A stretch of DNA of 64,000 nucleotides from an uncultured Desulfospira sp. Lineage in GTDB: Bacteria > Desulfobacterota > Desulfobacteria > Desulfobacterales > Desulfobacteraceae. The stretch is taken from the NCBI GenBank assembly GCA_963663165.1, contig OY760175.1:2080001-2144000 (forward strand), read 5' to 3'. This document shows, in pieces, positions 235 to 57,530 of this stretch. The position numbers were made by a program, and so were the translations under genes. The notes under the pieces are model-generated. The model was not told the DNA's origin. It ran no database searches and worked only from the letters and a program-made list of their open reading frames with translations. Numbering within the stretch: the stretch's first letter is position 1; each line of letters opens with the position of its first letter.

Positions 235-328
235 ACTAACGGCCACGGGCCGCCTTGGTTATCCAACCAAGAACCGCCCACAACAAATAATGAAAGTCTT
301 CTCAAAATGTTAGTGAGACTTTCATATA
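235..328. repeat. Family A two-hairpin repeat, copy 1
   Basis: ACTAACGGCCACGGGC...CTTTCATATA; near-identical reverse complement at 31572-31665, partial copy at 38777-38833, diverged copy at 57241-57332. Confidence 0.9.
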
Positions 329-375
329 AAACCGCACCATATTTGCCAAACATCAAAAAAGTGGAAAAAACCGGC

Positions 376-1905
376 ATGATCATAGTTATTGATTTTGGAT
401 CACAATTTAATCAGCTTATCGCCAGGAGAGTCAGGGAACATAAGGTTTACTGCCAGGTGGAACCCGCCCAGATCTCCATTGAAAAAATAAAATCCCTTAA
501 CCCGGAAGGGATCATTTTATCAGGCGGGCCGTCCAGCATCTATGAAGACAACAGCCCGACCATAGATAAGGCCCTGTTCGACTTAGGGGTCCCGGTACTC
601 GGCATCTGCTACGGGATGCATTACATGGTCCATGTTCTGGGCGGAAAGATTGAACGGGCCCGGAAAAGGGAATACGGGTTTGCCAACCTTGACATCAAGG
701 GGTCCTGCCCGTTGTTCAAAGATATGGAAAACAGCTTTCAGTGCTGGATGAGCCATGGCGACTCAGCCATTGAACTGCCCCCGGGGTTTGAGGTGACGGC
801 GTCCACGGAGAATACCGCCATTGCCGGCATTGCCGACCATAAACGAAAATTTTTCGGGCTTCAGCTTCATCCGGAAGTGGAGCATTCCGTTAACGGCTCG
901 CTGATGATCCGCCACTTTCTGTTTGACGTCTGCGGCTGTGAAGAAAGCTGGACCATGAAGTCCTTTGTGGATGGTGCAGTGGCCCAGATCAAAGACGCCG
1001 TCGGAGACGACAAGGTGATCATGGGCCTTTCCGGCGGCGTAGATTCCTCGGTGGCCGCCACCCTGATTCACAAGGCCATCGGCAAAAACCTTTACTGCAT
1101 CTTTGTGGACAACGGACTGCTCAGGAAAAACGAAAAAGAGCAGCTCCAACAGAGCCTGACATCCCACCTTGATTTAAACATCAAATTCGTGGATGCCGGA
1201 CAGCGCTTCTTAACGGCCTTAGAGGGCGTGACCGATCCGGAGATCAAGCGCAAAACCATCGGCAACCTGTTTATTGAGGTGTTTGACGAGGAGGCCGGAA
1301 AAATTGAAGGGGCGCGGTTTTTGGGACAGGGCACCCTTTACCCGGATATTATTGAGTCCAAATCCGCCTTTGGGGGCCCCACCTCCATTATCAAATCCCA
1401 CCACAACGTGGGCGGGCTGCCCGAAAAAATGAAGCTCAAACTCATTGAACCCCTGCAACTGCTGTTTAAAGACGAGGTCAGAAAACTTGGCCTGGAACTG
1501 GGCATCAGCGAAGACCTGGTCTGGCGGCAGCCCTTCCCCGGCCCCGGCCTTGCCATCAGGATCATGGGAGAGATTACCAAAGAACGGCTGGATATCTTAA
1601 GAACCGCCGACGGGATCCTTCTTGAAGAAATCAAGGCCGCCGGGCTGTACCGGAAACTGTGGCAGTCCTTTGCCGTCCTGCTGCCCGTCAAAAGCGTGGG
1701 GGTCATGGGGGACAAACGGACCTTTGCCAACTGCGTGGCCATCCGGGCTGTCACCAGCACCGACGCCATGACCGCAGACTGGGCCAAACTGCCTCACGAC
1801 CTTTTGGGGAAAATATCCAACCGGATCATCAACGAAGCCGAACAGATCAACCGGGTGGTGTTTGACATCACATCCAAACCCCCCGGAACCATTGAATGGG
1901 AGTAA
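376..1905 (+). CDS. guaA: GMP synthase (glutamine-hydrolysing)
   Basis: DFGSQ, GICYG, SHGD, HPEV glutaminase motifs; SGGVDSS PP-loop; C-terminal KPPGTIEWE. ATG 376 preferred over the ORF-track start 307, which lies inside a repeat. Confidence 0.97.
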   Translation: MIIVIDFGSQFNQLIARRVREHKVYCQVEPAQISIEKIKSLNPEGIILSGGPSSIYEDNSPTIDKALFDLGVPVLGICYGMHYMVHVLGGKIERARKREYGFANLDIKGSCPLFKDMENSFQCWMSHGDSAIELPPGFEVTASTENTAIAGIADHKRKFFGLQLHPEVEHSVNGSLMIRHFLFDVCGCEESWTMKSFVDGAVAQIKDAVGDDKVIMGLSGGVDSSVAATLIHKAIGKNLYCIFVDNGLLRKNEKEQLQQSLTSHLDLNIKFVDAGQRFLTALEGVTDPEIKRKTIGNLFIEVFDEEAGKIEGARFLGQGTLYPDIIESKSAFGGPTSIIKSHHNVGGLPEKMKLKLIEPLQLLFKDEVRKLGLELGISEDLVWRQPFPGPGLAIRIMGEITKERLDILRTADGILLEEIKAAGLYRKLWQSFAVLLPVKSVGVMGDKRTFANCVAIRAVTSTDAMTADWAKLPHDLLGKISNRIINEAEQINRVVFDITSKPPGTIEWE

Positions 1906-1913
1906 AACGTCCC

Positions 1914-2933
1914 ATGAGCCTGAAAGATTATAAAAGCGACGATCTGGACCTGCCCGAAGACCCGGGCGGTATCCCTTCCTCAGGATACCAGCAGGAAATC
2001 AATACCCTGAAAATTGAGAAATTATCCAACCGGGTTACCATCATCTCCGTTATTATTCCCGTTCTGATTACGGCTATCCTGGCCTTTGCCTATATGGATA
2101 TGAAAGAGCGGGTCATTGATGTGGATGAGACCAAAAAACACCAGATGGACCAGGTGGCCAAACAGCTGGAAGAAAAGGTCAATGCCCTGGATGTAAGGAT
2201 CGCCAAAAACCGGTTTGATTTTGACCAGAAAGTCCCGGAACTGGCCCAAAAGGGACAGGCCCTTGAAAACCAGGTGGCCAAAATGGAATCTGAAAAGGCC
2301 GGCGACAAAGAATTCAAAAAATTTATGCAGGAAACCGTAACAGCGGTCAAGGATCAAAAAGCCCTGCTGGACAAACTGGGAAAACGGATCCAAAACAACG
2401 CCGATCAGAACAAATCCGCCCTGGAAACCGTGGAACGGATCAATGCGGCCCTCCAAAAAACCATTAAGGAAAATGACACCCATTTCCAGACCGCGGCCAA
2501 AAAGATTCAGGAAGACATCAACCTGTTCAAAGAGGAGTTTGACGCAAGACTCCTGGAACTTGCCGATTATGATCAGGAAATCGCCAAACTGAAAAAAACC
2601 ACCGGCCTTCTGGAAACCCAGATCAAAGAACTGGACAGCCAGAAAATTTCAACCAAGGACGCCCAGACCCGCATGGCCGCGCTTAAGGCCTCCCTTGAAC
2701 AGCTGGTCAAAGAACGGACCAAACCCCAGGCGGCCGCCGTACAATCAAAGCCTTCTATGGCAAAGCCTTCTGAGACAAAGCCTTCGACAGGAACGGTTCA
2801 GGCCAAACCTTCGTCAACGCCCCCAAAACCTGCCCAGACGGTAAAGCAACCCCCTCAGACCATTGAGCCTGCCCTGAGCATTGATACGGACCCGTCAGCC
2901 AAGGGCATATCAGAAGAAACCCTGACTCAGTAA
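1914..2933 (+). CDS. Membrane-anchored coiled-coil hypothetical protein with Pro/Ser/Lys-rich tail
   Basis: One hydrophobic segment (VTIISVIIPVLITAILAFAY), long heptad-rich region, low-complexity C-terminus; ATG 8 nt after the guaA stop. Confidence 0.75.
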   Translation: MSLKDYKSDDLDLPEDPGGIPSSGYQQEINTLKIEKLSNRVTIISVIIPVLITAILAFAYMDMKERVIDVDETKKHQMDQVAKQLEEKVNALDVRIAKNRFDFDQKVPELAQKGQALENQVAKMESEKAGDKEFKKFMQETVTAVKDQKALLDKLGKRIQNNADQNKSALETVERINAALQKTIKENDTHFQTAAKKIQEDINLFKEEFDARLLELADYDQEIAKLKKTTGLLETQIKELDSQKISTKDAQTRMAALKASLEQLVKERTKPQAAAVQSKPSMAKPSETKPSTGTVQAKPSSTPPKPAQTVKQPPQTIEPALSIDTDPSAKGISEETLTQ

Positions 2934-4168
2934 CGGATCACCAGCCGGTCACCGGGGTGGATGACCTTTTTTTTGCCGAAGTGATTGAGCTTGAGCAAGG
3001 CGGAAAGGGACATGCCATATTTCCTGGCAATCCCGCCAAGGCTTTCCCCGGGTCTGACCACATGGATCCGGGATGTCTGCCGGGTGCTTTGTTTGGTCTC
3101 CCCGGCCTGGCATAATTTGGCAAATTCTTCCTTAAATCCCTTATCCGCCCCCTTGGGCACCAGAAGCTGGGTTTTGCCCGGCCCCAGGATGTACCCGCGG
3201 ATCTCAGGGTTCATATCCTTGATGGTTTTAAAGGACACCCCTGCGGCCTTGGCAATGTTAAGGATGGGAACATCCTTGCTGGTATTGACCTCTATTTCGG
3301 AAAAGGTCAGCGGCGGGTAAAGATCGGATTCAATATAATCAAACCCATAGGCGGCCGGATTGTCCAGGATCAGCTTAACCGCCACGGCCCGAAATACATA
3401 CCGCTGGGTTTCCCGGTAAAGGTAAAGGGAAAAATAATCCCGGGTATCCTGGGAATCGATTTCCCCCTGCAGTCCGCTTTCTCCCATGTTGTAGGCGGAC
3501 ATGGCCAGAAGATAGGAGCCGAACTGGGCATACAGTTTTTTAAGGTACTGACAGGCGGCCCGGGTGGATTTGAACAGGTTGCGCCGCTCGTCAACCCGGG
3601 AGTTGATGGTCAGGCCGTATCTTCTGCCCGTGCTTTTCATGAACTGCCACAACCCCACCGCGCCGGCCGATGACTGGGCATGGGGCCGCAAAGAGCTTTC
3701 AATTACCGTGATATATTTCAAATCCATGGGAAGTCCTTCCTGGGCCAGGATGGCTTCAACATGGGGAAAATACCGGCCACTGCGCTTAATCCAGAGGATG
3801 ACCTGGGCGCGGTCCCAGAGCATCAGGAGCATCTCCATTTCCAGCCGCTGTCTCACCTCTATGTCTTCAATGGGAATCCTTGTCCCGCAAAAGGTGATGG
3901 GGCCTTTAAACCGGATGCTCTCCATTAAGGAGGGGATCTTTTCCCGGCCCAGGGACATTTCTTCAGGTCCCGGGGAGCCCTGCTTTTCAGGGCTTGGGGA
4001 TATCTTTTCAGGCACTTTATGGGACGTCTTTTCCGGTACCGGATGGGATATGGTTCCGGAACTTACGGCCACGGGTTCGGTTTTTTCACAAAATCCCGGG
4101 GAAAGCATAAAACAGAAAACAAACAGTACAGCCCATCCGATCTTCAGGATGACAGGTGGTTGGCGCAT
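2927..4168 (-). CDS. Lytic murein transglycosylase (SLT domain + LysM), MltD-like
   Basis: IESS catalytic Glu, GAVGLWQFM, AYNMG motifs, C-terminal LysM (HVVRPGESLGGIARKYG). Start ATG 4168 (MRQPPVILK plus hydrophobic segment); the ORF-track extension to 4636 crosses promoter and repeat DNA. Confidence 0.9.
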   Translation of the reverse strand: MRQPPVILKIGWAVLFVFCFMLSPGFCEKTEPVAVSSGTISHPVPEKTSHKVPEKISPSPEKQGSPGPEEMSLGREKIPSLMESIRFKGPITFCGTRIPIEDIEVRQRLEMEMLLMLWDRAQVILWIKRSGRYFPHVEAILAQEGLPMDLKYITVIESSLRPHAQSSAGAVGLWQFMKSTGRRYGLTINSRVDERRNLFKSTRAACQYLKKLYAQFGSYLLAMSAYNMGESGLQGEIDSQDTRDYFSLYLYRETQRYVFRAVAVKLILDNPAAYGFDYIESDLYPPLTFSEIEVNTSKDVPILNIAKAAGVSFKTIKDMNPEIRGYILGPGKTQLLVPKGADKGFKEEFAKLCQAGETKQSTRQTSRIHVVRPGESLGGIARKYGMSLSALLKLNHFGKKKVIHPGDRLVIRY

Positions 4169-4198
4169 ATCGTCATTATCCTTATTGATTTTTTTAAA

Positions 4199-4310
4199 TT
4201 GAGAAAAAGCAAGCCATTCAACCGGAAACCGGCACATGACTGGTATCATGACAAAAATAAGACTTAAAGTCAATTTACCCATATCCGGGGCACGGGGTGA
4301 TCGCATGTAA
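4199..4310 (-). promoter_or_regulatory. Sigma70-type promoter region of the transglycosylase gene; copy 1 of a ~113 bp direct repeat
   Basis: Minus strand TTGACT (4273-4268) - 17 nt - CATGAT (4250-4245) with TG extension; the same block recurs at 5950-6063. Confidence 0.7.
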
Positions 4311-4420
4311 CTTGCATACTGGTGATGCCGATTTCGATGATAAGGATAATAATAAAAAGGAAACCGGAAGGAAGGGAGACGGGAGACCGAAACCGTCAAG
4401 TTCCCTGGTTTGAGCGGTAG

Positions 4421-4473
4421 GGTTGGAGCGGGCCATGCCCGCGATCGAATCGCGGGAATGGCCCGCTCCAACC
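4421..4473. repeat. REP-doublet (REPIN)-like palindrome
   Basis: GGTTGGAGCGGGCCATGCCCGCGAT-CGA-ATCGCGGGAATGGCCCGCTCCAACC: 25 bp arms with one mismatch, each arm itself palindromic. Confidence 0.75.
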
Positions 4474-4499
4474 TTGCATTGACCAAAAATGTAACGATC

Positions 4500-4647
4500 G
4501 TAATTCCGGGCGTAATTCCGTAATTCTCAAATTCTGTAATTCCGCCTAATTCCGGGGACACGATACAAAAATATTGGCAAGCGTATTTTAATTTTGTCTC
4601 GTGTCCACGGAATCCGCATGTGTTCCCAAAATCCACACCCGGAATCC
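4500..4647. repeat. Degenerate (G)TAATTCC tandem repeats around an AATTCCGGGGACACGA / TCGTGTCCACGGAAT inverted repeat
   Basis: Six AATTC(C/T) units at 4501-4553; inverted arms 4548-4563 and 4599-4613; GGAATCC/AAATCC units to 4647. Confidence 0.75.
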
Positions 4648-4663
4648 ACTGCTGAACAGTTAC
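4647..4663. repeat. Solo end of the family C MITE
   Basis: CACTGCTGAACAGTTAC is the exact reverse complement of 34862-34878. Confidence 0.75.
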
Positions 4664-4992
4664 TCTTTTTTTTGCATTCCAATCAGGTGCTGGGCGCGAA
4701 CCCTTCGGGTCGCCTGCACCAAATCACTCATTCGGCCCTGGCTGGACTTGGCTTGAACATGCTTGGTGATATCGTCAATGGTTTTCTGAATATCATCCGA
4801 TTCCATCCCGTACAAGGCAATGTATCTGGCCTGGCCATCCTCAGGATTGATGTTCTCGTAGCGGTCGACGCGGACAACGGCCGGCAGTTCAAGCATGTCG
4901 GGCAGGTGAATGTTATTGTACCACTCGTTAAACTCCGCCTCGCGATCAGGATCAATACAATTGCTTTCAACAATTAACAGCCATTTTTTCAT
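4660..4992 (-). CDS. Small EthD/DUF4286-like protein
   Basis: REAEFNEWYNNIHLPDML and RYIALY patterns typical of EthD-like alpha/beta proteins; GGAGG RBS; ATGA overlap with the upstream transporter stop. Confidence 0.7.
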   Translation of the reverse strand: MKKWLLIVESNCIDPDREAEFNEWYNNIHLPDMLELPAVVRVDRYENINPEDGQARYIALYGMESDDIQKTIDDITKHVQAKSSQGRMSDLVQATRRVRAQHLIGMQKKE

Positions 4993-5888
4993 GTTTTTAC
5001 CTCCATGGTCTTTGATCGGCCCGTGGCCGTTAGTACCAGTATATTGCCGATCAGGGTGATCAATACCCCTGTCACGGCCGTCAAGGACCAGTGATAGCCC
5101 TCAAACAGCGTAGACAAGGACAACGCAATGACCGGAAAGAGTACGGTGGCATAGGCCGCTTTTTCTGCGTCAATGCGCCCTAACAGTGCAAAGTAGGCGG
5201 CAAAGGCGACAAGAGAACCAATAATGGCCAGATACGCTAAAGAAAGCACATAGGGCAGCCTTGCATCAAACACAAAATGCTTGCCGCTGGCAAAAAGAAA
5301 TAAAGTGAGCAGAACGGTGCCATAAAACATGGCCCAGGCGGTGTTGCCGGTAACGGCAAGGCCGGCCTTCCGGTTGCGGGCGGAAACAATACTGCCCATT
5401 GAAAAACAAAGGGTACCGCCCAAACTGAGAATCAATCCCTGGCCGGCCCCGGACCCAAGCGAGACACCGGACAGTTCCGGCGAAAACACAATACAGATTC
5501 CGCAAATGCCCAGGCAGGCGCCCGATACGACGCTGCCGGCCGGTCTGCGGCGAAGAATGAGCCCATTGAACAACAGGGTCATGGCCGAAGCCGTTGAAAA
5601 GATCACGGCGATCAATCCCGTGGTCAGGAATGCCGCGGCATGGTAGAAAAGAAAAAAATTGGTTGAAAAAATCAATGCCCCCTGAAGCGCCATCCACAGA
5701 TGCTGCCGGAAGGTAAACCGCAATGGCCGGCGCCTGAGCACGGCCCATGTAAACATGCAGATGGCTGCGACACCAATCCGATAGGCAACGGAAGCCTCCG
5801 GCGGGACATCGCCCACCTGAAATCTAACCGCCAGCCAGGTAGACCCCCAGATGAACACTACCAGTGTATACAAAGACATTGTAACCAT
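4989..5888 (-). CDS. EamA/DMT family transporter
   Basis: About 10 TM segments, IWGSTW motif, two EamA repeats. Confidence 0.9.
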   Translation of the reverse strand: MVTMSLYTLVVFIWGSTWLAVRFQVGDVPPEASVAYRIGVAAICMFTWAVLRRRPLRFTFRQHLWMALQGALIFSTNFFLFYHAAAFLTTGLIAVIFSTASAMTLLFNGLILRRRPAGSVVSGACLGICGICIVFSPELSGVSLGSGAGQGLILSLGGTLCFSMGSIVSARNRKAGLAVTGNTAWAMFYGTVLLTLFLFASGKHFVFDARLPYVLSLAYLAIIGSLVAFAAYFALLGRIDAEKAAYATVLFPVIALSLSTLFEGYHWSLTAVTGVLITLIGNILVLTATGRSKTMEVKT

Positions 5889-5949
5889 GGGCTGCCCTCC
5901 AGATTATGGCGGCTCCCATGCGCCAATCAGGCATTGAATACTGAAACCA

Positions 5950-6063
5950 TTGAGAAAAAACAATAAATTCAACGGGGAACCGGCATCCGGCTGGTATCAT
6001 GACAAAAATAAGGATCAATGTCAATTTGCCCTGCGGGGCAGTCCCACGGGCCATTGCATGTAA
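5950..6063 (-). promoter_or_regulatory. Sigma70-type promoter region of the EamA gene; copy 2 of the ~113 bp direct repeat
   Basis: Minus strand TTGACA (6024-6019) - 17 nt - CATGAT (6001-5996); shares CTGGTATCATGACAAAAATAAG exactly with 4240-4261. Confidence 0.7.
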
Positions 6064-6189
6064 AAAAGCAATCCATTTCGGAATGGGGAATTAGGTTTGG
6101 CTTACACCAACCGACACAGAGGGCCGGACCTTGAAAACCTGTGTCCATGGCAATCGTCCAGAACTATTTTTTACATGAGACTGCCATGG

Positions 6190-6238
6190 TCTCTTGTCTC
6201 TTGTCTCTTGTCTCTTGTTTCTTGTTTCTTGTTTCTTG
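6190..6238 (+). repeat. Heptamer tandem repeat (TCTCTTG)4(TTTCTTG)3
   Basis: Read directly; bracketed by the TGCCATGGT direct repeat at 6182-6190 and 6237-6245. Confidence 0.95.
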
Positions 6239-6288
6239 CCATGGTATACGGAAAGCTGTTTTACAACCCTTCAGGCAACCTTATTTTT

Positions 6289-7080
6289 ATGGTGACATCA
6301 TTGGAACAGTTTTTACAAGACCTTCTTAAAGAGGCCGGGCAGATCTGCCTTTCAGAGCAGGAGAATTTAACGGCCGGGGACCTTGAGTTTAAAAATCAAA
6401 AAGATATTGTAACGGCCACGGACAAAAAAGTGGAAAATCTGGTCATTTCCAGGATCAAGGCCAGGTTTCCCGGCCATGATATCTTAGGAGAAGAAACCGG
6501 AAGGCATTGCAGCCCGGACAATCCGGACCGGTACCTGTGGGTCATTGACCCCATTGACGGCACCACCTCTTTTTATCACAACCAGCCCTTTTATTCGGTG
6601 AGTATTGCCCTTCAAAAACAGGGGCAGACCTTTCTGGGCGGGGTGTTTGCACCGGCCCTGGGCCAGATGTTTACCGCCCAAAAGGGGCATGGCGCCTTTT
6701 TAAACGGGCACCCCATCACCGTGTCCAGCCGGAGCACCCTTATAGAATCGGTAATGGCCACGGGTTTTGCCTGCCTGAGGGCCGGGCTTGAACCCAATAA
6801 CCTGGTCCATTTTAACCGGATTGTGCCACAGCTGCGGGACATCCGGCGGTATGGGTCGGCAGCCCTTGATCTGTGCTATACGGCCGCAGGAAAGCTGGAC
6901 GGGTTCTGGGAAATGGAACTTAACCTGTATGATATTGCGGCCGGCGCCCTGATTGCCGGGGAAGCCGGGGCGTCTGTAACGGATTTTAACGGCGGCACCG
7001 GGTTTCCTGAACAGGGGATTGTTGCTGCTAATCCGGTCCTGTCCCGATTATTGATTGACCTGCTGAACCCAAACTATTAA
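6289..7080 (+). CDS. suhB: Inositol monophosphatase family protein (SuhB-like)
   Basis: GEE, WVIDPIDGTT, RRYGSAALDL, YDIAAG motifs; start placed at ATG 6289. Confidence 0.88.
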   Translation: MVTSLEQFLQDLLKEAGQICLSEQENLTAGDLEFKNQKDIVTATDKKVENLVISRIKARFPGHDILGEETGRHCSPDNPDRYLWVIDPIDGTTSFYHNQPFYSVSIALQKQGQTFLGGVFAPALGQMFTAQKGHGAFLNGHPITVSSRSTLIESVMATGFACLRAGLEPNNLVHFNRIVPQLRDIRRYGSAALDLCYTAAGKLDGFWEMELNLYDIAAGALIAGEAGASVTDFNGGTGFPEQGIVAANPVLSRLLIDLLNPNY

Positions 7081-7090
7081 TCTGTATTTT

Positions 7091-10255: not shown

Positions 10256-10267
10256 AGAGGCATTACC

Positions 10268-13525: not shown

Positions 13526-13526
13526 T

Positions 13527-28790: not shown

Positions 28791-29108
28791 TACACCATTC
28801 CTTTCAAAAGCGTCTTTTGTAACTGTCTAAATGAATTTTTTAAAATGCCATAACCCGGGTCAAATGGCAAGGTCATTTATATATAAGCCTCACTAACATT
28901 CTGGAAAGACTTTTATTTTTTGTTGCGGACCGATATGTGACCGGACAATCGGAACCGTTCCGCCTTCTGGATTTTAAGGGCGTGATCGGTATTTAAGTTT
29001 CAACAGGCTGGAATCCCAGGAAAATCAATTTTAATATTGACCACAAACAACCTTGAGTGATATATATAATGGTTTTTTAATCGCCTGGCTGTCGGGTGAT
29101 ATAACTTA

Positions 29109-31562: not shown

Positions 31563-31571
31563 TTAAAATTT

Positions 31572-31665
31572 TATATGAAAGTCTCACTAACCTCTTGAAA
31601 AGACTTTCATTATTTGTTGTGGGCGGTTCTTGGTTGGATAACCAAGACGGCCCGTGGCCGTTAGT
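31572..31665. repeat. Family A two-hairpin repeat, copy 2
   Basis: TATATGAAAGTCT...AGACTTTCAT-TATTTGTTGT-GGGC...GCCC-GTGGCCGTTAGT; reverse complement of 235-328 with few substitutions. Confidence 0.9.
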
Positions 31666-34861: not shown

Positions 34862-34969
34862 GTAACTGTTCAGCAGTGCCCCATCTTCGCTCATTCAGGT
34901 CTTCTCACATAGCAAAAGTATGCTACGAAGACCTGACTAAACAAATATGAAGCACTGATGAACAGTTAC
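34862..34969. mobile_element. Family C MITE-like element with IS66-like GTAACT termini
   Basis: GTAACTGTTCAGCAGTG / CACTGATGAACAGTTAC terminal inverted repeats (16/17); internal stem TCAGGTCTT / AAGACCTGA. Confidence 0.8.
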
Positions 34970-38236: not shown

Positions 38237-38776
38237 AAATACCCTTCCCTTTCTTTAAACAGAATTCTAGTGAATAGCTCAATTGTTCCGAATTATAAAT
38301 ACGGTATTGAAAAAACTTCAGATCGAATAAATTGTAACTGATTTTCTATTCGAATATTTTTTCCGGGTCAAATCTGATCTCAAGTGTTAGACCATCATTA
38401 GATTTTTATTTGGCATGTTTTTTCAACTTATTATTTTCATTATTTTTTTTTGTGAAACACTTTATTTTCCAAAAAATTACAGCCATTTCCCCAACCCCCT
38501 ATTTTTTCAAGATTTTTATATCAAGTTACATTTTTATTCCACTTACGATAAAAATAAATACTCCGATTTCCGTTAATTACCTTCGATTTTCTTGAAATTA
38601 TGCATTTTTAAATTCTTTTTCCCAAACTTTTTATGGACAAGGGTTTCACAATTTTCTTGACGATATCGGCCACCCCGGCCAACTCCCCTAATGGTGCGGG
38701 TATGCATCATCGGGACTGATATCAGGGCATTAAAGGATTCGAAAATGTAAATTTTTCCTCACTTTTCAACTCAATA

Positions 38777-38833
38777 TAACGGCCACGGGCCGCCTTGGTT
38801 ATCCAACCAGGAACCGCCCACAACGAATAATGA
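38777..38833. repeat. Family A repeat, truncated copy 3
   Basis: TAACGGCCACGGGCCGCCTTGGTTATCCAACCAGGAACCGCCCACAACGAATAATGA matches 237-293 with 2 substitutions; second hairpin absent. Confidence 0.9.
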
Positions 38834-38888
38834 GACTGAAGATACCAGCAACGGTAGACTATAAACTGGGCACCGCAGGTGCTTCGCC

Positions 38889-38921
38889 CTCTTGTCTCTT
38901 GTTTCTTGTTTCCAGTTTCTT
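38889..38921 (+). repeat. Degenerate heptamer repeat (TCTCTTG/TTTCTTG type)
   Basis: CTCTTG TCTCTTG TTTCTTG TTTCCAG TTTCTT; same unit as 6190-6238. Confidence 0.8.
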
Positions 38922-39020
38922 ATAAAAGGGGCATGGGTATTGAAGCGAAGGATGCTTGCAGGGTTCGGCCCACCTATAGTATATAATTATCTTTACCAAC
39001 ACCATAAATTCAGGAAACAT

Positions 39021-47476: not shown

Positions 47477-49033
<1,557 letters not shown>

Positions 49034-49159: not shown

Positions 49160-49188
49160 AGAATACATTAAACCCCGCTTAATGTCAA
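49160..49188 (-). promoter_or_regulatory. rRNA operon sigma70 promoter
   Basis: TTGACA (49188-49183) - 17 nt - TATTCT (49165-49160), upstream of leader boxA. Confidence 0.75.
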
Positions 49189-49203
49189 ATCTTTTTTATT
49201 TTT

Positions 49204-51978
49204 TTATTTCAATACCAACCCTGCGGGAAGATTTTCCCCGAATTGGGCAGTCTTTTCTTTTAAATCCATCCTGATTTTTTCTCTGACCTTGTTAATCAGC
49301 TGTTCAGGGGCACCTTGCCCAATTAACCAGGTCATTACTTTTTCATGGATTTCGGCATCAATATCCCGGGTTCGATCACCGGTTTTCCTTGCCATGGCAG
49401 CAATCAGCTGATGAATGGGGTCTTTCCTATCCCAATTTTTCTTCATTAAATACAGGATCCATTTTCCAACCTCAGACGGCGGGACGACTCTGTCTATGGA
49501 GCCGTATAACAGCTGCCTGTCTCCGAACCTTCCTATAGTCCAAAACAAGGTGTCCTGCTTTTTCCCCGGTTTGATCTGCGGCAAAAGGGCTTTGGCAAGA
49601 ACGACTTTATCTTTGACCAACAGCCGCTCCATGTTACCGGCTGCCATCCACAGCTCTGTCTTTTCCTGAGGGGGCAGTTTGCTTTTATTTTTTGTCAGTA
49701 CACCGGATACTTCCTGAAAAAATTGTCTTTGCTGCCCGGCCTTCAGACCGGCCGCTATCCTTCTGATAAAAATCCACCACTCCAGTCGATTCTGAGTATC
49801 CTTTTCAAACTTAAGCCCGGATAGATAAACCTTCCACAATTTCCTGACACGGTTTTCGTCAAAGGCGTCTCCAAATCCAGGCCTCATACAAAACCCCGTC
49901 AGGTTTAACCACCGGGCCTCATGTTCCGGAGACGTACTTCTGAAACTTTCAAGGTCTATGAGCCGATCTGAAAGCTTTCTTAAAAACGAAAGGGGCCAGT
50001 TCGACTTTTTTTGCTCTACAATTGTTTCAATTTTCCTGACAACGTGTTGGGGTCCCTCAATATCATTGGCGGAAAAAGCATGCACGACTTCAGAACAGGC
50101 ATGTTCTATGAGAGAATCTTCATAAACCTGGGTTTCTGTTGTTTCAATATCCGTCTGCATTCCTCGAAGCTGAAACTGAAGCTTCCAACGATGTTCACTG
50201 GCAACAGACCGGCAATACATGGCAAGGGTTCCCATCTCGGTATATTCAGCGCCAATATTCACTGGGATTTCTTTTTTCTCCCCAGTTTTACCGAATTTAA
50301 TGATGGTCTGAATCGGGGCCATGGGGGTCAGGGTGTTGTCAATGGAGAGAATATCTCCAGCTGAATCGCCGGACCGGAAACTTGAACTATACACCGGGAA
50401 ACTTACCGGCTGGTTGGTCCTGACCTTGTATTCCATTTTGGGCAGGCTGATTTCAGATCCCTCATCCAGGCCCCTTTCCACAAGGCATACCGCCTTCTGA
50501 CCCGCCTGGGAAAATACTGAAACCCCCAGATAATAGCTTCTTGGGCTTCCGCTGCCGACTTTAACCCCGATCCCCTGCTTGACAAGCCCGTAATAAGATG
50601 CCCCTAAACCCACCGCCAATTCAGGACTGTTATTTTCAAGAATCTTTGGTTTAGAGGAATCTGTGGTTTTAAACCAGCGCCGGATGGATTCTCTGATTCT
50701 TGATTGGACAAGAACCGGTTTCAGGGTTCCGCCGTTAAATAAAATAAAATCGGGCAAAGGCTCTTTTTTGTTCAAAGCAGCCTGAATATTCTCCCGATGT
50801 TTCTCAAGAAAAGCAATAATATGTTTCGTAACAGACCGTTCCTTTTCAAAAGGAAGGCCAAAATCAGCAATTTCCTTACCCGGTTCGATCTGACTTAAAT
50901 TTTCTGAATCCACATCGGCAAAGAACTGGCCCCTTAGAACTGATTCCACATCCTGCTTTGTCAGATCAGCCGAAAGCGTCCCCGCAATCAACGAGCGCCC
51001 CTCGCCTTTTATGGTGATGCGAACGCTTTTTTCGTCATTGCCCAGGATCACTTCCTTTGCCTCCCGGCATCTGTGGCAAAGGGTTTTCCATTTATCCGAA
51101 GTCATGGAAGTGCTTGACTTGAATTTGGATTCGACTATTTTGGCAAGTTCCAGATCAATATTGTCCCCGCCCAGAATCAGGTGATCCCCAACCGCTATCC
51201 GCTCGAATCTTGGCGTGCCCTGTGTGGCTTTCAAAGAAATCAGGCTGAAGTCCGTTGTCCCGCCGCCCACATCACAGACCAGGACAAGGTCGTCTTCCCG
51301 GATATGCTGCTCCCAGTCCGATTCATGACGGATCAACCATGAATAAAAGGCAGAAAGCGGCTCCTCAAGAAGGGTAACCGATTCGCCAAGCCCGGCCTTA
51401 CCAACCGCTTCCATGGTTAAATCTCTGGCCTCTTCATTAAAAGACGCCGGCACGGTAATGACCACAAACTGATTCTCGATAAACTTATCCTCATCCTTGA
51501 CGAAGTAGTTCCAGGCGCTCCGGATATGGGTCAGATATTCAGCGGTTGCATCCACCGGTGAGATTTTTTCGACCCCTTGGGACCCCCATGGCAGAATCCT
51601 GGCCTGGCGATCGGCATTGGCATTACACAACCAGCTTTTTGCTGAAGACACAAGCCTTGACGGAATTTTTGAACCATGATCCCGGGCAAACGTCCCGGCA
51701 AACATATCCTCCCGCTTTTTCCAGGGATGTTTGAGGGTTTCCTTTGAAATATCATAATCGCCGGGGATATATAAAAATGAGGGCAAAACGGAAATCTTTG
51801 AAAACTCACCATGACCGGTAAGCTGAGGGATATTAAAAACCTTGATCACTTTCTTTTTATCGGGCAGTTGCTTGATAACGCCCTGTTCTCGAAGCTGGGC
51901 CACATCCACATAAGAAACCGCACAATTGGTGGTGCCCAAATCAATCCCGATGACATATTGTCTTTCCTGAAAATCCAC
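49204..51978 (-). CDS. Atypical Hsp70-family protein with C-terminal DUF3731-like domain
   Basis: GIDLGTTN, TVPASF, EEP, DVGGGTTD, LGGDNID, FNGG actin/Hsp70 ATPase motifs; C-terminal HEARWLNL.GFC.RPGFG, EWW...RR.A.GL, R.TGDR.RD. Confidence 0.85.
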   Translation of the reverse strand: MDFQERQYVIGIDLGTTNCAVSYVDVAQLREQGVIKQLPDKKKVIKVFNIPQLTGHGEFSKISVLPSFLYIPGDYDISKETLKHPWKKREDMFAGTFARDHGSKIPSRLVSSAKSWLCNANADRQARILPWGSQGVEKISPVDATAEYLTHIRSAWNYFVKDEDKFIENQFVVITVPASFNEEARDLTMEAVGKAGLGESVTLLEEPLSAFYSWLIRHESDWEQHIREDDLVLVCDVGGGTTDFSLISLKATQGTPRFERIAVGDHLILGGDNIDLELAKIVESKFKSSTSMTSDKWKTLCHRCREAKEVILGNDEKSVRITIKGEGRSLIAGTLSADLTKQDVESVLRGQFFADVDSENLSQIEPGKEIADFGLPFEKERSVTKHIIAFLEKHRENIQAALNKKEPLPDFILFNGGTLKPVLVQSRIRESIRRWFKTTDSSKPKILENNSPELAVGLGASYYGLVKQGIGVKVGSGSPRSYYLGVSVFSQAGQKAVCLVERGLDEGSEISLPKMEYKVRTNQPVSFPVYSSSFRSGDSAGDILSIDNTLTPMAPIQTIIKFGKTGEKKEIPVNIGAEYTEMGTLAMYCRSVASEHRWKLQFQLRGMQTDIETTETQVYEDSLIEHACSEVVHAFSANDIEGPQHVVRKIETIVEQKKSNWPLSFLRKLSDRLIDLESFRSTSPEHEARWLNLTGFCMRPGFGDAFDENRVRKLWKVYLSGLKFEKDTQNRLEWWIFIRRIAAGLKAGQQRQFFQEVSGVLTKNKSKLPPQEKTELWMAAGNMERLLVKDKVVLAKALLPQIKPGKKQDTLFWTIGRFGDRQLLYGSIDRVVPPSEVGKWILYLMKKNWDRKDPIHQLIAAMARKTGDRTRDIDAEIHEKVMTWLIGQGAPEQLINKVREKIRMDLKEKTAQFGENLPAGLVLK

Positions 51979-51997
51979 TATTTCCCCTGGTAATTTA

Positions 51998-52759
51998 TTA
52001 GATTTCGACCTCGGCCGGCGTCATAATGCTTGAATCCTGAATATCCAAAAGACTGGGAATCTCTTTTTTACCGGCTCTCCAGCCCCGGTGTCTTAAAATG
52101 CCTTCAAAAGGCGGTTCACCGGTGACATTTCCCACCAGGCTGACGGAGTCCATGTCAAAACCCGGCTCAATGGTTACAGTCTCTCCTTCTTTTGAATCAA
52201 TCACGGGTTTTGGATCAATATACTTTTTAACCGCCCGTTTACAATCTTCTTGTATGCTTCTGACCGCAGCCCCGATCTGTTCGTCCTCGTAGAGACTTAA
52301 GTCTTCTTCAAAAAAATCCAGGAGGCGGCCTTCTCTTTGGAGAATGGAAAGGGTATGAAGGAAAAGCCGCCTTTTTCTTTCCTGCTCTATCCAGTGATCT
52401 ATGAAATCTTTTTGTGTTGCCTTTTTCTCCGGTTTTACTGCCGGCTGAACATTCATCTGGTTAAATGCAGAAGACATAAAAATTTTCAACAGCAGCCATC
52501 CCACTCCCCCTAAAAATAAGCAGCCCCCCATAATTCCAGGAACTACCCATACATAAAAATTCTGAGAAATAAGGTCCAGCTGCCCGGCCCAGACCGGTAT
52601 ATTCTCAAGCAAGAGTTCCTTGCCGGAATCCATAGAAAAAACAGATAAAAACCAATTTATAAGATAATAAGTTCCACCACAAAGCACAGCGCTCAAAAAC
52701 AACATATACACCGCAATAACGAAGAAAGACCGCCTTTCATATATCTTTGAAATCTGCAA
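51998..52759 (-). CDS. DUF2760 domain membrane protein
   Basis: LQREGRLLDF..ED...Y.DEQIGAAVR, GNV.GEPPF.G.L.HRGW, PAEVE; two N-terminal TM segments. Confidence 0.82.
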   Translation of the reverse strand: MQISKIYERRSFFVIAVYMLFLSAVLCGGTYYLINWFLSVFSMDSGKELLLENIPVWAGQLDLISQNFYVWVVPGIMGGCLFLGGVGWLLLKIFMSSAFNQMNVQPAVKPEKKATQKDFIDHWIEQERKRRLFLHTLSILQREGRLLDFFEEDLSLYEDEQIGAAVRSIQEDCKRAVKKYIDPKPVIDSKEGETVTIEPGFDMDSVSLVGNVTGEPPFEGILRHRGWRAGKKEIPSLLDIQDSSIMTPAEVEI

Positions 52760-52913
52760 TTATTTTTCCTTTCTTAAATTTACGGTTCACCCCTTTGAAA
52801 ATGAAAAACCATGTTGAAATAATCAACATGGTCTTCAATTATAATGCAAATTTTTTCTATATCAAGGGATGTTTGAGTCCTGGAATCAGGGGGCTCTAAA
52901 CGGGTCAACGGAC

Positions 52914-53189
52914 TTATGTTACCGTAATTCTATCTTTATTGTTTTCAAATACCTTCTGCCCGACACCTTTCACATTCATGATATCTTCAGGCGCCTTAAA
53001 AGGGGTCTTTTCCCGATATTCTATGATTCTATCCGCGAGGGCCTCACCAACACCTTTGAGTGTCATCAATACCTCTTTGCTTGCGGTATTAATATTCACC
53101 TTTTCGGCCTGGGCCACAGCAGTAGAAAGGCAAAGACAAATGAATAAGCCAATGAAAATGACCGAAAGTGATCTTTTTGAGTTTCTCAT
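52914..53189 (-). CDS. comEA: ComEA-family helix-hairpin-helix DNA-binding protein
   Basis: Signal peptide, VNINTAS, L.GVG..LA.RIIEYR, VKGVG. Confidence 0.85.
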   Translation of the reverse strand: MRNSKRSLSVIFIGLFICLCLSTAVAQAEKVNINTASKEVLMTLKGVGEALADRIIEYREKTPFKAPEDIMNVKGVGQKVFENNKDRITVT

Positions 53190-53515
53190 AGCGTTCTCCT
53201 TTTTGTGAAAAGTCTAAAATATTGGGTACAAAACTCCCCCTGATTCCAAAACCGAATTCAGAAAGAAGCGAACAAGCGACTCATTTACAAAAAAAGAAAA
53301 GCCTCTGCTGCCATTTTCAAGCACTGTTGATCATATCAACTTCAAATGAATATTTTGTATATAAAATAAATACATTGTCATTTCAATAAAAAATAGTTTC
53401 TTACATCAATTCCAAATTTAGCAAGGCACTCAAAAAAAAATGATCGGAATATGATATTAAAAGATAAAGGGGGTGAGACCGGGCATGTTGATTCCCACGG
53501 TTTTTTTCTAATAAA

Positions 53516-55411
53516 TTATCCGGTCGGCCTGTATTCTGGTATCATTTCCTTCATAAGGGACCGGATTCCTGCCCCATCCCGGTCCTTTGCTTTCTCCTTG
53601 AGGAGGGAAAGCTTCCCGTTCAGCACCTCCGGATTCAAGCAGCTGGTGTTCAGCACCATAATTTTTTTATGGCCGGTGGGAACCACATCTTCTATATCCG
53701 TCATCAACTCTTCATACAATTTTTCCCCTGGCCGAAGGCCGGTATATTCAATTTTAATATCACCATCAGGTTCAAATCCGGAGAATCGAATCAAATCCCT
53801 AGCCATATTATCAATATTAATAGGCTCTCCCATTTCCAGAAGAAAAATCTCGCCGCCATTTCCCATGGCACCGGCCTGAAGTATCAGCTGACAGGCTTCA
53901 GGAATAAGCATAAAGAACCTTACAATATCCGGATGAGTAACCGTTACCGGCCCCCCTTCTGCAATCTGCTTTTTAAATAAGGGAATCACACTGCCCACAC
54001 TTCCAATCACATTCCCGAACCTCACCGTCATAAAAGAGGTGCCGCTATTGCCGTCGGCACAGCCAATCTCCTGAACCAGCAATTCTGCAATCCGCTTACT
54101 TGTTCCCATGACATTGGTGGGATTGACCGCTTTATCCGTAGAAACAAAAACAAATTTGTCGCATTTAAATGCCTTGGAGACTTCAATAAGATTTTTTGTG
54201 CCGAAAACATTATTTTCCACAGCTTTCCAAGGGTGTTCCTCCAGCATGGGCACATGTTTATAGGCCGCAGCATGAAAAACGATCTCCGGCTGAAGCTGAT
54301 GAAACACCTTGTCGAGTTCTTCTCTGTTCTGAATATCACCCAGGACAGGAACCACCTCAATATTTTGAAAATTCTTCTTTAGCTCAAGGTCAATTTCATA
54401 CAACGGGCTTTCCGCCCTTTCAAAAAGAATGATTTTCTCAGGAGAATACCTGCAGATCTGCCGGCACAGCCCAGTTCCGATGGACCCGCCTGCCCCTGTT
54501 ACAAGCACCCGCTTGCCGCCAAGATATTTTCCTATCTGCTCCTGATCCAGTTTTACCGGTTCTCTTCCCAAAAGGTCCCTGTATTCAACCTTTCTGATGG
54601 AGGTAACATCAATCTTTCCATTGATCAATTCCCCTAAATTGGGAATGGTCTTAAAATCCACATCAGCCTTTTTACACAACCCGACAATCTGCCTCATCCG
54701 GTCTGCACCCAGGCTTGGGATCGCAATAATAACATCTTCAGCTCCGGACAATTTGACGGTCTGTCCCAGATTTTCAATCGTATTCAAAACTGACACGCCA
54801 TGTATCTTTCTGCCAATCTTTGAAGGGTCGTCATCCAGAAACCCTAAAACACGGGATTTCACAGAAGGGTTCTCTTTAAACTCTCTGCACACTTTTTGCC
54901 CGTAATCTCCTGCCCCAATGATCAAAGTTCCTTTGAGGTCTCCAACATTCTTCTTTCTGAACACCTTGAATAAGGCATATTTTACATCCTGAAGTGTAAT
55001 TTTTTCTGTAAATTCTTCAAAACATAAACGTACAGACAACCGCAGGCTTGAAATAAAAAATACAGTAAGATAAAAGTCGATAACAAATACCGACCTGGAA
55101 ATGTCTTCAAACCTGGTCAGATATAAAACCAAGGCAATTATAATGAACATTGCAACAATTGAAGCCTTTGCAATGCTAATCAAATCATTGAGGCTTGTAT
55201 ATCGCCACATCCCCCTATACAAATCAAAAAAATAAAAGCACAAAATCTTGCACAGGATAATATATGGAAGGAAGTGTAAAAAACTTTTATAAACCCATTG
55301 ACTTTGGACAAAATCATATCGAATCAAATGAGCCAGATAAAATGAACTCCCCCATAAAATAATATCAAGCAGCAAAACAATGAATAAATTTCTTGATATC
55401 CTAATTCTCAT
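53516..55411 (-). CDS. Membrane-bound UDP-GlcNAc 4,6-dehydratase (PglF/CapD/WbpM family)
   Basis: Four TM, IIGAG, LLGR, GAGGSIG, HAAAYKHVP, STDKAVNP, RFGNV.GS, GLRPGEKLYEEL. Confidence 0.93.
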   Translation of the reverse strand: MRIRISRNLFIVLLLDIILWGSSFYLAHLIRYDFVQSQWVYKSFLHFLPYIILCKILCFYFFDLYRGMWRYTSLNDLISIAKASIVAMFIIIALVLYLTRFEDISRSVFVIDFYLTVFFISSLRLSVRLCFEEFTEKITLQDVKYALFKVFRKKNVGDLKGTLIIGAGDYGQKVCREFKENPSVKSRVLGFLDDDPSKIGRKIHGVSVLNTIENLGQTVKLSGAEDVIIAIPSLGADRMRQIVGLCKKADVDFKTIPNLGELINGKIDVTSIRKVEYRDLLGREPVKLDQEQIGKYLGGKRVLVTGAGGSIGTGLCRQICRYSPEKIILFERAESPLYEIDLELKKNFQNIEVVPVLGDIQNREELDKVFHQLQPEIVFHAAAYKHVPMLEEHPWKAVENNVFGTKNLIEVSKAFKCDKFVFVSTDKAVNPTNVMGTSKRIAELLVQEIGCADGNSGTSFMTVRFGNVIGSVGSVIPLFKKQIAEGGPVTVTHPDIVRFFMLIPEACQLILQAGAMGNGGEIFLLEMGEPINIDNMARDLIRFSGFEPDGDIKIEYTGLRPGEKLYEELMTDIEDVVPTGHKKIMVLNTSCLNPEVLNGKLSLLKEKAKDRDGAGIRSLMKEMIPEYRPTG

Positions 55412-55478
55412 TACTTAACCCTAAAAAACATTTCGAATCCACTTCGTATATAAACTACTATGTTGTAAAATATACGGA

Positions 55479-57023
55479 TCACTTTTTCACCCGATCTCCG
55501 GCCCCTTTGCCAGAAACTGTCATAAGAATATAATGAAAATACTTTTTAACAGAAAAATCCTTCAGCATTTTCTGATCAGTTTCAGCCAGTAACATTGGTG
55601 TTGACATATCTATTTTATTTACTTGAGCCAAGCCAGTGATCCCGGGACGGACGTTAAAAACCCCCCTTGCAGACCGCGTCTGAATCAATTCAAACTGATT
55701 TAACAAACACGGTCGGGGGCCTACGAGGCTCATCTCACCTTTAAGAACGTTCCAAAGCTGAGGCAGCTCATCCAATTTGGTACAGCGCAGGAAATGTCCG
55801 AACTTCGTTATTGAAGAAACACTGGCCAAATGGCTTGCGACCGAAGCAGTATCTAACTTCATAGTACGAAATTTAATCAAGACAAAAGGCTTCTTTCCCT
55901 TACCGACTCGTTTCTGACGAAAAATTGGATATCCAGTGTCCAAAAGTCCAATAATAAGCAACAAAAGAAGGAGAGGAGAGCTTAAAATGATACCAACTGC
56001 GGAAAATCCAATATCAAGAAAACGAATAATTTTAATCTCTTCATACGCCTTACTTGCCAACATATCAGCAACACAACACCTAAGTCCATCATTAACGGAA
56101 ATAGGCGGCTCCCAGCCCAGAAGATCCCGGGCCTTGCTGATATCAATTTGTAATGAGCCCAGCAAACGTTGGGCAACAGCCTGCTTCCCCATTAACAATG
56201 CCCCAAGATCCAATAATTTAGCAGGCACCGGGATCAAACGGGCCTGTTTGTTTATGGCTTTGCCAATACGGTATAGCAGATCAGTAGTCGACAAGTCTTT
56301 GCCATCAGAAACGAGGAACACCTGGTTGGCGGCAGCAGGATGATCAATGCAGGTGATAATAAAATCGATAAGATTCCTCAGCGCTATCAGACTACGTTTA
56401 TTATGAACAGCCCCCAAAGGCAATGGGATGCCTTTATCAAGCCACTGGATTATGCTTTGGAAATTCCCCTTAACATTCGGGCCGTAAACCAATGGTGGCC
56501 GTATAACAGTAATCTCCATATCCCAATCATCTGCCATTTTAAACAATTCATTTTCTGCCTCTAATTTCGATATTCCATAAGGACCTTGGGGCTCAGGAGA
56601 CATATCCTCTGTAAAGGGGGTGCCTGGTTGTGAGAATTCACCATTTACTTTAATTGTACTTATGAAAATAAACCGTTGAACCCCCATCTTGGCAGCTTGA
56701 CGGGCCAATGAAATTGTTCCGGCGGCATTGACTCTGCGAAATTCCGATAAAGGGTCTTTTGAAGGATCTTTCATAACGTGAACCCTTGCTGCAGTATGGA
56801 TAATCACATCAATATTTTCCAAGACCTGCTTCCAATCTGTTTCCTCACTTAACTCACGCGTGTTGTGAATGCTGACGCCTTCAATATTTATCTGCCCCGC
56901 GCCTCTGCTCGTACCACGGACATTATAGTCTCCGCTTTGCGATAATACTTTGGCAAGAGCGCTTCCTATGAACCCCGTTGTTCCGGTTATCAAAATATCC
57001 AGTTTTTCTTTCCCGTTTTGCAT
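55479..57023 (-). CDS. Fusion of NAD-dependent epimerase/4-reductase (WbpV/WbpK-like) and small phosphoglycosyltransferase (PglC-like)
   Basis: N-terminal GTTGFIG, AARVH, YGISK, RPPLVYG; C-terminal FRQKRVG, KFRTM, KLDELPQL.NVL.GEMSLVGPRP, RPGITGLAQV in one frame. Start approximate. Confidence 0.85.
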   Translation of the reverse strand: MQNGKEKLDILITGTTGFIGSALAKVLSQSGDYNVRGTSRGAGQINIEGVSIHNTRELSEETDWKQVLENIDVIIHTAARVHVMKDPSKDPLSEFRRVNAAGTISLARQAAKMGVQRFIFISTIKVNGEFSQPGTPFTEDMSPEPQGPYGISKLEAENELFKMADDWDMEITVIRPPLVYGPNVKGNFQSIIQWLDKGIPLPLGAVHNKRSLIALRNLIDFIITCIDHPAAANQVFLVSDGKDLSTTDLLYRIGKAINKQARLIPVPAKLLDLGALLMGKQAVAQRLLGSLQIDISKARDLLGWEPPISVNDGLRCCVADMLASKAYEEIKIIRFLDIGFSAVGIILSSPLLLLLLIIGLLDTGYPIFRQKRVGKGKKPFVLIKFRTMKLDTASVASHLASVSSITKFGHFLRCTKLDELPQLWNVLKGEMSLVGPRPCLLNQFELIQTRSARGVFNVRPGITGLAQVNKIDMSTPMLLAETDQKMLKDFSVKKYFHYILMTVSGKGAGDRVKK

Positions 57024-57039
57024 AGATTCCAAAGTCTTC

Positions 57040-57530
57040 TTATCGAAATATATATTTAACATCATCCGGTTGTTCCGTTGGATTCATACCCTTTGGTGCC
57101 TGAGTAGAACCACAAAGCCGCTGTAAAATATTACAGTAGTAAACTAACCCCGCATAGCCAAATAGTCCACCATGAAAAATTTGCGAAATAAAAAATCCAG
57201 ATGATAGAGAAACATAGGTAGAGATGATAACTTGATCATTTATATGAAAGAATCTGCAGCCTGCTGTAATTCTTTCATGATTTGTTGTGGGCCGAATGGG
57301 ATTAATAATCCACGCGGCCCATGGCCGTTAGTTACCATCAGTCTCCTTGCCTTAATCATTTGAACAACCAAATAAAGCATGACCAAAGGTATGCAGCCGC
57401 ATAAAAGATACCACTCTCAATTGCCATCTGCAGAAAACCGTTGTGAAATTTTCCAGGAAGATCCGGGAAGGTCATGATAAGCAAGATTGTACTTTTTCTG
57501 GTATGAATCTGGTTGTCTCATTTTCCAGTG
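57040..57530 (-). pseudogene. Decayed 3' fragment of an O-antigen ligase/Wzy_C family gene
   Basis: HNGFLQMAIESG encoded at 57445-57410, followed by hydrophobic segments across frameshifts; interrupted by the family A repeat. Confidence 0.65.
57241..57332. repeat. Family A two-hairpin repeat, diverged copy 4
   Basis: Same termini and linker (TATATGAAAG, CTTTCAT, ATTTGTTGTGGGC, CGGCCC.TGGCCGTTAGT) with different stem interiors. Confidence 0.85.

What the first reader, a model, noticed from the sequence alone, without database searches (positions are those of the whole stretch)
235..57332. Family A: ~93 bp two-hairpin repeat with no terminal inverted repeats, covarying stems and evidence of mobility
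Seen: copies at 235-328 (guaA 5' region), 31572-31665, 38777-38833 (truncated) and 57241-57332. Layout is TATATGAAAG-[stem 1]-CTTTCAT-(T/G)ATTTGTTGT-GGGC-[stem 2]-GCCC-(G/A)TGGCCGTTAGT. Between copies 2 and 4 the termini and linker are kept while the stem interiors are rewritten but still pair (GAAAGTCT/AGACTTTC becomes GAAAGAAT/ATTCTTTC; CTTGGTT/AACCAAG becomes GGATT/AATCC). The two ends are unrelated, there is no consistent target duplication, and all three full copies follow TT. Removing copy 4 exactly rejoins a reading frame (ATG GTA | AAT GAT CAA on the minus strand). Inference: a non-autonomous element recognised as folded ssDNA or RNA. Asymmetric hairpin ends without TSD are the established signature of HUH/Y1 (IS200/IS605, IS91) substrates rather than DDE ones. 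I cannot assign it to a named family and no cognate enzyme is in the window.
Basis: partly seen in the sequence, partly recalled or inferred. Interest (0 to 1): 0.8.

Follow-up and report, generated by a model that had tools for sequence, protein, structure and literature searches.

The report
RNA-guided mini-transposon that targets itself
The repeat is a gene-less 90-150-base element, present at about 280 places in this genome, that shares both end motifs with an IS110-family insertion sequence elsewhere in the genome; it is likely moved by that element's RNA-guided recombinase, whose predicted guide of only three letters matches the insertion sites and would explain why copies also pile up head-to-tail.

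Summary
The repeat is real and mobile, but it is not an HUH/Y1 substrate. It has 281 loci genome-wide, many in head-to-tail arrays, and empty paralogous sites exist. Its partner lies outside the window: a 1.74-kb IS110-family element (419-aa DEDD recombinase, three copies) with the same end motifs. 'Hairpin 1' is the pair of subterminal inverted repeats left after loss of the gene and RNA; 'hairpin 2' is the IS's own left-end hairpin. Downstream of the recombinase lies a bridge-RNA-like sequence. Three letters in it equal the three bases beside the insertion site at 75 of 79 IS sites, across about 21 guide changes on the tree. The commonest mini-element target class matched the resident guide in 15 of 17 genomes. 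Guides TAT or ATA match the element's own right end, and the array junction register follows the guide. An IS110 MITE (MITEPpu9) and bridge RNAs are known. A one-sided three-letter guide, a 29-nt hairpin end and self-targeted arrays were not found in my searches. Circles and activity are untested. My three look-ups showed no earlier scan finding of this.

The parts
238..330 (+).
235..237 (+).
28877..28957 (-).
31570..31662 (-). Copy 2, core to core, between rplI and dnaB
31663..31665 (-). Target triplet ACT of copy 2
38778..38926 (+). Copy 3, full-length 149-bp long-loop variant, between dnaA and pdxA
38775..38777 (+). Target triplet TAT of copy 3, equal to the guide of the resident IS
57239..57329 (-). 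Copy 4, core to core; belongs to the subtype that is followed by the ACT-class target in 16 of 16 cases
57330..57332 (-). Target triplet ACT of copy 4

Best explanation
The repeat is a gene-less miniature element that shares both end motifs with an IS110-family insertion sequence in the same genome, and it is likely mobilised in trans by that element's DEDD recombinase and a predicted bridge-type RNA whose three-letter target guide would pick the insertion site. Shown: shared ends; a 419-aa recombinase gene followed by a conserved, covarying non-coding block; a duplicated AA core; identity of three RNA letters with the three bases left of the core; a second segment that matches the element's own right end. 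Inferred from IS621-type systems: the ends are joined into a circle, the RNA segments pair with the bottom strands of target and donor, and recombination occurs at the AA core. Inferred: when the guide is TAT or ATA the element's right end is itself a target, so arrays grow. Inferred: the ACT-class copies (three of the window's four) date from an earlier resident IS with guide ACT that is now lost.
For: Partner found as a neighbour of units in another genome and then in G000. NCBIfam NF033542 238 bits over cut-off 140; Pfam PF01548 + PF02371; alignment to IS621 and ISCro4 recombinases. Of 143 loci with a recombinase hit, 120 showed the left-end motif, 115 the RNA block and 115 the right-end motif (some loci are cut contigs or repeats of one element). 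Guide = flank triplet at 75 of 79 distinct sites; positions -1/-2/-3 match 78, 77, 75 of 79 against shuffle maxima 59, 52, 55. 72 of 75 distinct recombinases have all flanks matching, with 16 guide classes and 21 changes on a quick ML tree. The donor segment changes with the right end in two lineages. The commonest of three target classes equals the resident guide in 15 of 17 genomes. Array junctions 3T:2T are 261:20 where the guide is ATA, 18:50 and 130:260 where it is TAT, 1:9 (AAT) and 0:0 (ACT). Empty sites. A 22-bp donor works with RNA in trans for IS621 (PMC11208160, passages).
Against: No circle junction was seen (contigs only) and expression of the RNA is not shown. No right-hand target or donor guide was found, unlike known bridge RNAs. 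G069 and G087 have guide TAT but more ATT-class copies; six of the 15 agreeing genomes have under 10 matches, partly the IS itself. G001, G013 and G019 hold over 150 matches each, but the recombinase query found nothing in them. Family-level co-occurrence is weak (4 of 5 against 5 of 19, p 0.047, kin not independent). G000 holds no remnant of an ACT or AAT guide. Extra T at the junction was 0, 1, 2 or 3 in 2, 4, 4 and 1 of 11 loci, where exact recombination predicts 1 (four of these paralogues are other copies of the element). The single RNA region folds no better than shuffles (z -1.2). The resident IS differs from the minis in hairpin and spacer sequence.
Confidence: 0.86

Rival explanations
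1. Same IS110 parent, but the donor is recognised as a folded single strand or cruciform: the paired inverted repeats and the left-end hairpin would replace the missing right-hand guides. This is a refinement of the best explanation, not an exclusive alternative.
For: Inverted-repeat positions 7-9 pair in 42, 42 and 39 of 42 distinct arm pairs of full IS elements, shuffle maxima 32, 32, 28 (only two or three independent types). The left-end hairpin keeps pairing with a free loop in IS and minis. Natural 3T junctions fold with the repeat stem closed around the core on both strands. Top-strand ssDNA circles integrate for CazIS110-1 (10.1101/2025.10.25.684509, passages).
Against: Symmetric protein binding to double-stranded repeats, or gene conversion between arms, could also give matching arms. 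The predicted junction fold does not keep hairpin 2 intact. No experiment.
Confidence: 0.35
2. An HUH enzyme (IS200/IS605 TnpA, RAYT or IS91 Y2) peels and pastes the two-hairpin unit.
For: Asymmetric hairpin ends; 14 Y1 and 8 Y2 matches in the genome; variable T count at one end.
Against: None of those genes is bracketed by the ends; nearest distances of 0.7-1.8 kb in 4 of 19 listed Y1/Y2 places are about what 281 loci give by chance. Both ends belong to an IS110 element, and targets follow its RNA letters.
Confidence: 0.04
3. Arrays arise mainly from tandem by-products of copy-out or from recombination between copies, not from insertion into the element's own end.
For: Tandem cargo repeats formed in 3 of 96 colonies for CazIS110-1 (passages). 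3T junctions equal the predicted circle junction and occur in TAT-guide genomes.
Against: Neighbouring units differ: all 74 junction pairs were distinct subtype combinations. Junction register follows the guide. 65 of 115 ATA-class right flanks were the element's own end or end-like, although such ends are at most 326 of 11,769 matching five-mers.
Confidence: 0.15
4. A tyrosine recombinase (integron integrase or XerD) or a reverse transcriptase spreads the units.
For: An array lies directly behind xerD, and a weak partial copy near an IntI-like gene; 11 RT matches.
Against: Single adjacencies among 281 loci; no paired AAC/GTT box as in attC; RT genes are 2.5 kb or more from the nearest copy; no account of guide-target covariation.
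Confidence: 0.02

Closest known systems
MITEPpu9 with ISPpu9 (Pseudomonas putida; PMC12288879, passages read)
   Same: MITE-like unit flanked by the ends of an IS110-family element, recombining at a core dinucleotide, sometimes in tandem.
   Different: Eight copies in KT2440, carries the ssr9 RNA gene, AG core, REP targets, IS110 group without subterminal repeats. Here about 280 loci, no gene or RNA block, AA core, subterminal repeats, a 3-nt guide match and mixed arrays.
IS1111-group elements and seekRNA (PMC11187229, section 6 and passages read)
   Same: Subterminal inverted repeats, 3-nt right extension, long non-coding region downstream of the gene, RNA-encoded target choice.
   Different: Left extension 28-32 nt with a hairpin instead of 7 nt; repeats 8-11 bp perfect; recombinase 419 aa instead of 330-350 aa; only one target-matching segment found.
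IS621 and ISCro4/IS622 bridge recombinases (PMC11208160, PMC13626964, 10.1101/2025.05.14.653916; passages read)
   Same: DEDD plus Tnp domain protein, core dinucleotide at both boundaries, RNA with target- and donor-matching segments.
   Different: Known systems pair 8-14 nt on both sides of a CT core and IS621 encodes the RNA upstream. Here 3 variable nt plus AA on one side, RNA downstream, and the guide can equal the element's own end.
PATEs, REPINs and other HUH-mobilised palindromic elements (recalled; REPIN papers seen as search listings only)
   Same: Small, gene-less, hairpin-rich, intergenic, hundreds of copies, arrays.
   Different: Partner is a DEDD recombinase, not a Y1 transposase; hairpin 1 is a collapsed inverted-repeat pair.

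Membership tests
IS110 family, broad (parent element) | DEDD_Tnp_IS110 plus Transposase_20 domains above curated cut-offs | tested here: met
   PF01548 82.7 bits, PF02371 58.9 bits, NF033542 237.9 bits (cut-off 140)
IS110 family, broad (parent element) | Catalytic D, E, D, D and serine motifs intact | tested here: met
   one search aligns GLD, MES, KTDxxD and ES motifs to IS621; that these are the catalytic residues is recalled
IS110 family, broad (parent element) | Core dinucleotide at both boundaries, no tip inverted repeats | tested here: met
   AA core from empty sites and IS flanks; junction A count varies by 1-2
IS110 family, broad (parent element) | Non-coding RNA with target and donor guides on both sides of the core | tested here: inconclusive
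   left target and left donor matches found; no right-side guide found; RNA not observed
IS110 family, broad (parent element) | Circular intermediate | tested here: inconclusive
   no junction in four contig sets; contigs drop rare forms
IS1111 group | Subterminal inverted repeats (11-13 bp in PMC11187229; 7-17 bp in PMC11208160) | tested here: inconclusive
   8-11 bp perfect in 82 of 94 loci: inside the wide range, mostly below the narrow one
IS1111 group | Extensions of 7 bp left and 3 bp right | tested here: not met
   right 3 nt; left 28-32 nt in 94 of 94 loci
IS1111 group | Long non-coding region downstream of the gene | tested here: met
   about 370 bp downstream against about 110 bp upstream
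IS1111 group | Transposase of 330-350 aa related to IS1111 over its length | tested here: not met
   419 aa, within the 395-455 aa range given for the IS110 subgroup; no tree against ISfinder members was possible
IS200/IS605 PATE, IS91 or REPIN (HUH) | Ends shared with, or bracketing, a Y1/Y2 transposase gene | tested here: not met
IS200/IS605 PATE, IS91 or REPIN (HUH) | Target set by a guide inside the element | tested here: not met
   no element position predicts the target across subtypes and genera; the IS110 RNA letters do
Integron attC | Paired AAC/GTT R box and cassette array at an integrase | tested here: not met
   no conserved AAC partner; the IntI-like gene has only one weak partial copy beside it
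Catalogued ISfinder element or MITE | Identity to a named entry | not testable with these tools
   ISfinder not available; best plasmid homologues are about 40% identical and unnamed

The most novel reading that the evidence does not exclude
A distinct bridge-recombinase clade with only three programmable target letters and no right-hand guides, which reads its donor as a folded junction (paired subterminal repeats plus a hairpin). Its natural reprogramming to TAT or ATA turns the element's own end into the preferred target, building arrays of hundreds of RNA-less parasites whose flanks record the guides that passed through a genome.
Probability: 0.4. Interest if true: 0.82.

Novelty: new variant of a known kind. 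Interest (0 to 1): 0.68.

Why it matters
Bridge recombinases are being developed as programmable tools, and the described ones pair 8-14 bases on both sides of a core. This clade appears to use a far shorter, one-sided guide and an unusual structured left end. The minis define natural minimal donors of about 60-150 bp, and hundreds of insertion sites per genome give a ready-made specificity map. About 21 natural guide changes make the guide rule directly testable. The case also shows that hairpin repeats which look like REP or IS200 derivatives can be IS110 parasites, and suggests why some genomes accumulate arrays.

Tried and rejected
Rfam at gathering and E-value thresholds gave nothing for the unit or the RNA region. 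Plasmid and phage DNA searches gave only weak 37-base hits; viral contigs gave none for pattern or protein. Pairing left and right motifs within 6 kb, and an HMM of the minis, missed the partner because its ends are diverged; my first conclusion that no IS110 gene was bracketed was wrong (corrected in 42). An in-element guide in the linker or loops fitted some subtypes but failed across genera; the first mutual-information run had a length bug and returned nothing. xerD, IntI and RT adjacency were treated as chance. An orthologous empty site for copy 4 was not found in five genomes. Laying runs on the IS showed no circle junction, and an RNA run held only diverged relatives, which does not show transcription. 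RNA segments resembling the left-end motifs did not covary with them, so they are not claimed as guides. The careful tree did not finish; the quick tree was used. Literature searches found no description of this family; supplements were not read and bioRxiv supplements are closed, so this clade may be listed in tables of 10.64898/2026.10.21.760802, 10.1101/2025.05.14.653916 or PMC11208160.
Full report
OBSERVATION. The four copies are in the window and fold far better than shuffles. The family is large: 281 loci covering 34.7 kb of the 6.74-Mb genome. A parser resolved 274 full units at 198 loci, 62 of them with two or more head-to-tail units. Only 5 of 281 loci lie inside ORFs of 200 aa or more, which cover 76% of the genome (partly circular, since an insertion breaks an ORF). 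Copy 3 is a complete long-loop variant and a fifth decayed copy exists. Most carry Desulfobacterota-type labels; a few are labelled Nitrospirae, Synergistia, Vulcanimicrobiota or Pseudomonadota. Stems pair across these with many compensatory types.

BOUNDARIES. Searching left and right flanks separately found paralogous empty sites (output partly cut, eight clear loci seen, 11 loci under a stricter rule). Empty sites read TT followed by the same bases that follow the filled copy. The best case has flanks 99-100% identical and one extra T. The extra-T count varied from 0 to 3, so this junction is imprecise or the paralogues differ. Right flanks fall into classes: ATA 115, AGT 49, ATT 42, TAT 32 of 274 units. 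One subtype, which includes copy 4, is followed by AGT in 16 of 16 cases against 33 of 258 for the rest. Contigs of a related organism skip two of the loci in a 10-kb test stretch, though not base-precisely.

PARTNER. HUH genes, integrases and RTs were examined and rejected. Clustering genes next to the units in other genomes showed an IS110-type transposase whose upstream end was itself one of the element's ends. Its homologue has three identical copies in G000, one cut at its 3' end. The intact copy L025 (G000:C1:4366465-4368204) is 1,740 bp core to core, by my count. Read in gene orientation it starts with the AA core and a 29-nt extension holding the hairpin, followed by a 10-bp repeat. 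The 419-aa gene and about 370 bp of non-coding DNA come next, then the inverted copy of the repeat, three bases and the core. The mini-element has this layout without the middle, so 'hairpin 1' is the collapsed repeat pair. The protein is NF033542 above cut-off with intact motifs, and 6,322 relatives pass 1e-80 among 8,000 scored. In several genomes the full IS sits inside arrays of minis.

GUIDE. The downstream region holds a conserved block with covarying stems among 80 distinct sequences, although the single sequence is not unusually stable. Three letters before an AA in this block equal the three bases left of the insertion core at 75 of 79 distinct sites. Position -4 matches only 40 of 79, within the shuffle maximum of 42. 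On a quick tree of 75 recombinases the guide changes 21 times, and flanks follow in 72. A second segment equals the element's right end and changes with it in two lineages. No column covaried with the right flank. By analogy with IS621, where left guides pair with bottom strands (PMC11208160, passages), I read these as left target and left donor guides; this is inference.

MINIS FOLLOW THE GUIDE. Counts of ATA, AGT and ATT classes in 26 genomes include the IS's own end. The commonest class matched the resident guide in 15 of 17 genomes where it could be scored. G069 and G087 did not match. G004, G005 and G122 were left out because their guides fall outside the three classes, and six genomes had no recombinase hit. 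Eight genomes with AAT, ACT or ACC guides had 0-1 ATA-class copies, except G096 (71 against 151 ATT). AGT-class copies are 42 in G000 but 0-2 in the other large families. G000 holds no ACT-guide remnant, so an earlier resident is inferred. ATT copies form 8-21% of the large TAT-type families and may be tolerated mismatches.

ARRAYS. The right end reads CATAT then an A-run, so guide TAT predicts a 2T junction and guide ATA a 3T junction. Observed 3T:2T were 18:50 and 130:260 with TAT, and 261:20 with ATA; genomes with AAT or ACT guides had 10 and 0 junctions. The prediction was made before these two calls. The 3T junctions in TAT genomes need an earlier ATA guide or tandem by-products, as reported for CazIS110-1 (passages). 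A weak preference for end-like bases beyond the triplet and neutrality of intergenic sites may add to the clustering.

MECHANISM. Shown: anatomy, mobility, shared ends, guide-flank identity, genome-level agreement. Inferred: circle formation, RNA expression, trans action, and folded-donor recognition. The last rests on repeat arms that covary across about 1.7 kb and a hairpin with a free loop. No circle junction was seen.

COMPARISON. The parent meets the broad IS110 definition on protein and core, but fails two IS1111-group features: left extension and protein length (PMC11187229, section 6 and passages). An IS110-associated MITE is known (PMC12288879, passages). I read part 1 of PMC13626964, part 1 and passages of 10.1101/2025.10.25.684509, and passages of 10.1101/2025.05.14.653916 and 10.64898/2026.10.21.760802. 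The last two had no hit for 'Desulfo', and the last none for 'MITE'. Seven literature searches found no account of this family; supplements and ISfinder were not seen. Three look-ups of earlier scan findings returned one unrelated note.

VERDICT. A new variant of a known kind: an RNA-less MITE of an atypical IS110-family clade with a very short predicted guide and self-targeted arrays. Interest 0.68.

Noticed in passing
window 57580-59037 (-): IS66 transposase just upstream of the frame interrupted by copy 4; that frame looks like the end of a membrane protein and its downstream part has no Pfam hit.
   Followed up: partly
window near 34940; G000:C1:3600041, 3651130, 3683610: A second repeat family with about 50 copies carries an ACT-class target and has been hit by the mini-element at three or more independent loci.
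   Followed up: partly
G000:C1:4178000-4195900 (L039): IntI-like integrase (464 aa) beside small toxin-antitoxin-like genes, an IS91-like remnant and two frameshifted group II intron RT copies; looks like an integron.
   Followed up: no
G000:C1:683705-684821: A two-unit array sits directly downstream of an xerD-like gene; treated as a chance insertion.
   Followed up: partly
L295: An IS copy whose non-coding block is fused to a mini-element at their shared CACAAC motif. The motif occurs in both the left end and the RNA block; its role is unexplained.
   Followed up: partly
long-loop variant, e.g. window 38778-38926; G000:C1:2776427: The long loop contains heptamer repeats shared with another dispersed repeat (22 partial HMM hits without the element's other end): probably captured cargo.
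   Followed up: no
G000:C1:1731372-1732936, 2956188-2956356, 3693244, 4169331: Copies inserted in inverted orientation into the loop of another copy, which contains an ACT-class target.
   Followed up: partly
G000, several loci such as C1:2834634-2837024: Multi-copy elements with three tyrosine recombinase genes in a row (RIT-like, label recalled).
   Followed up: no
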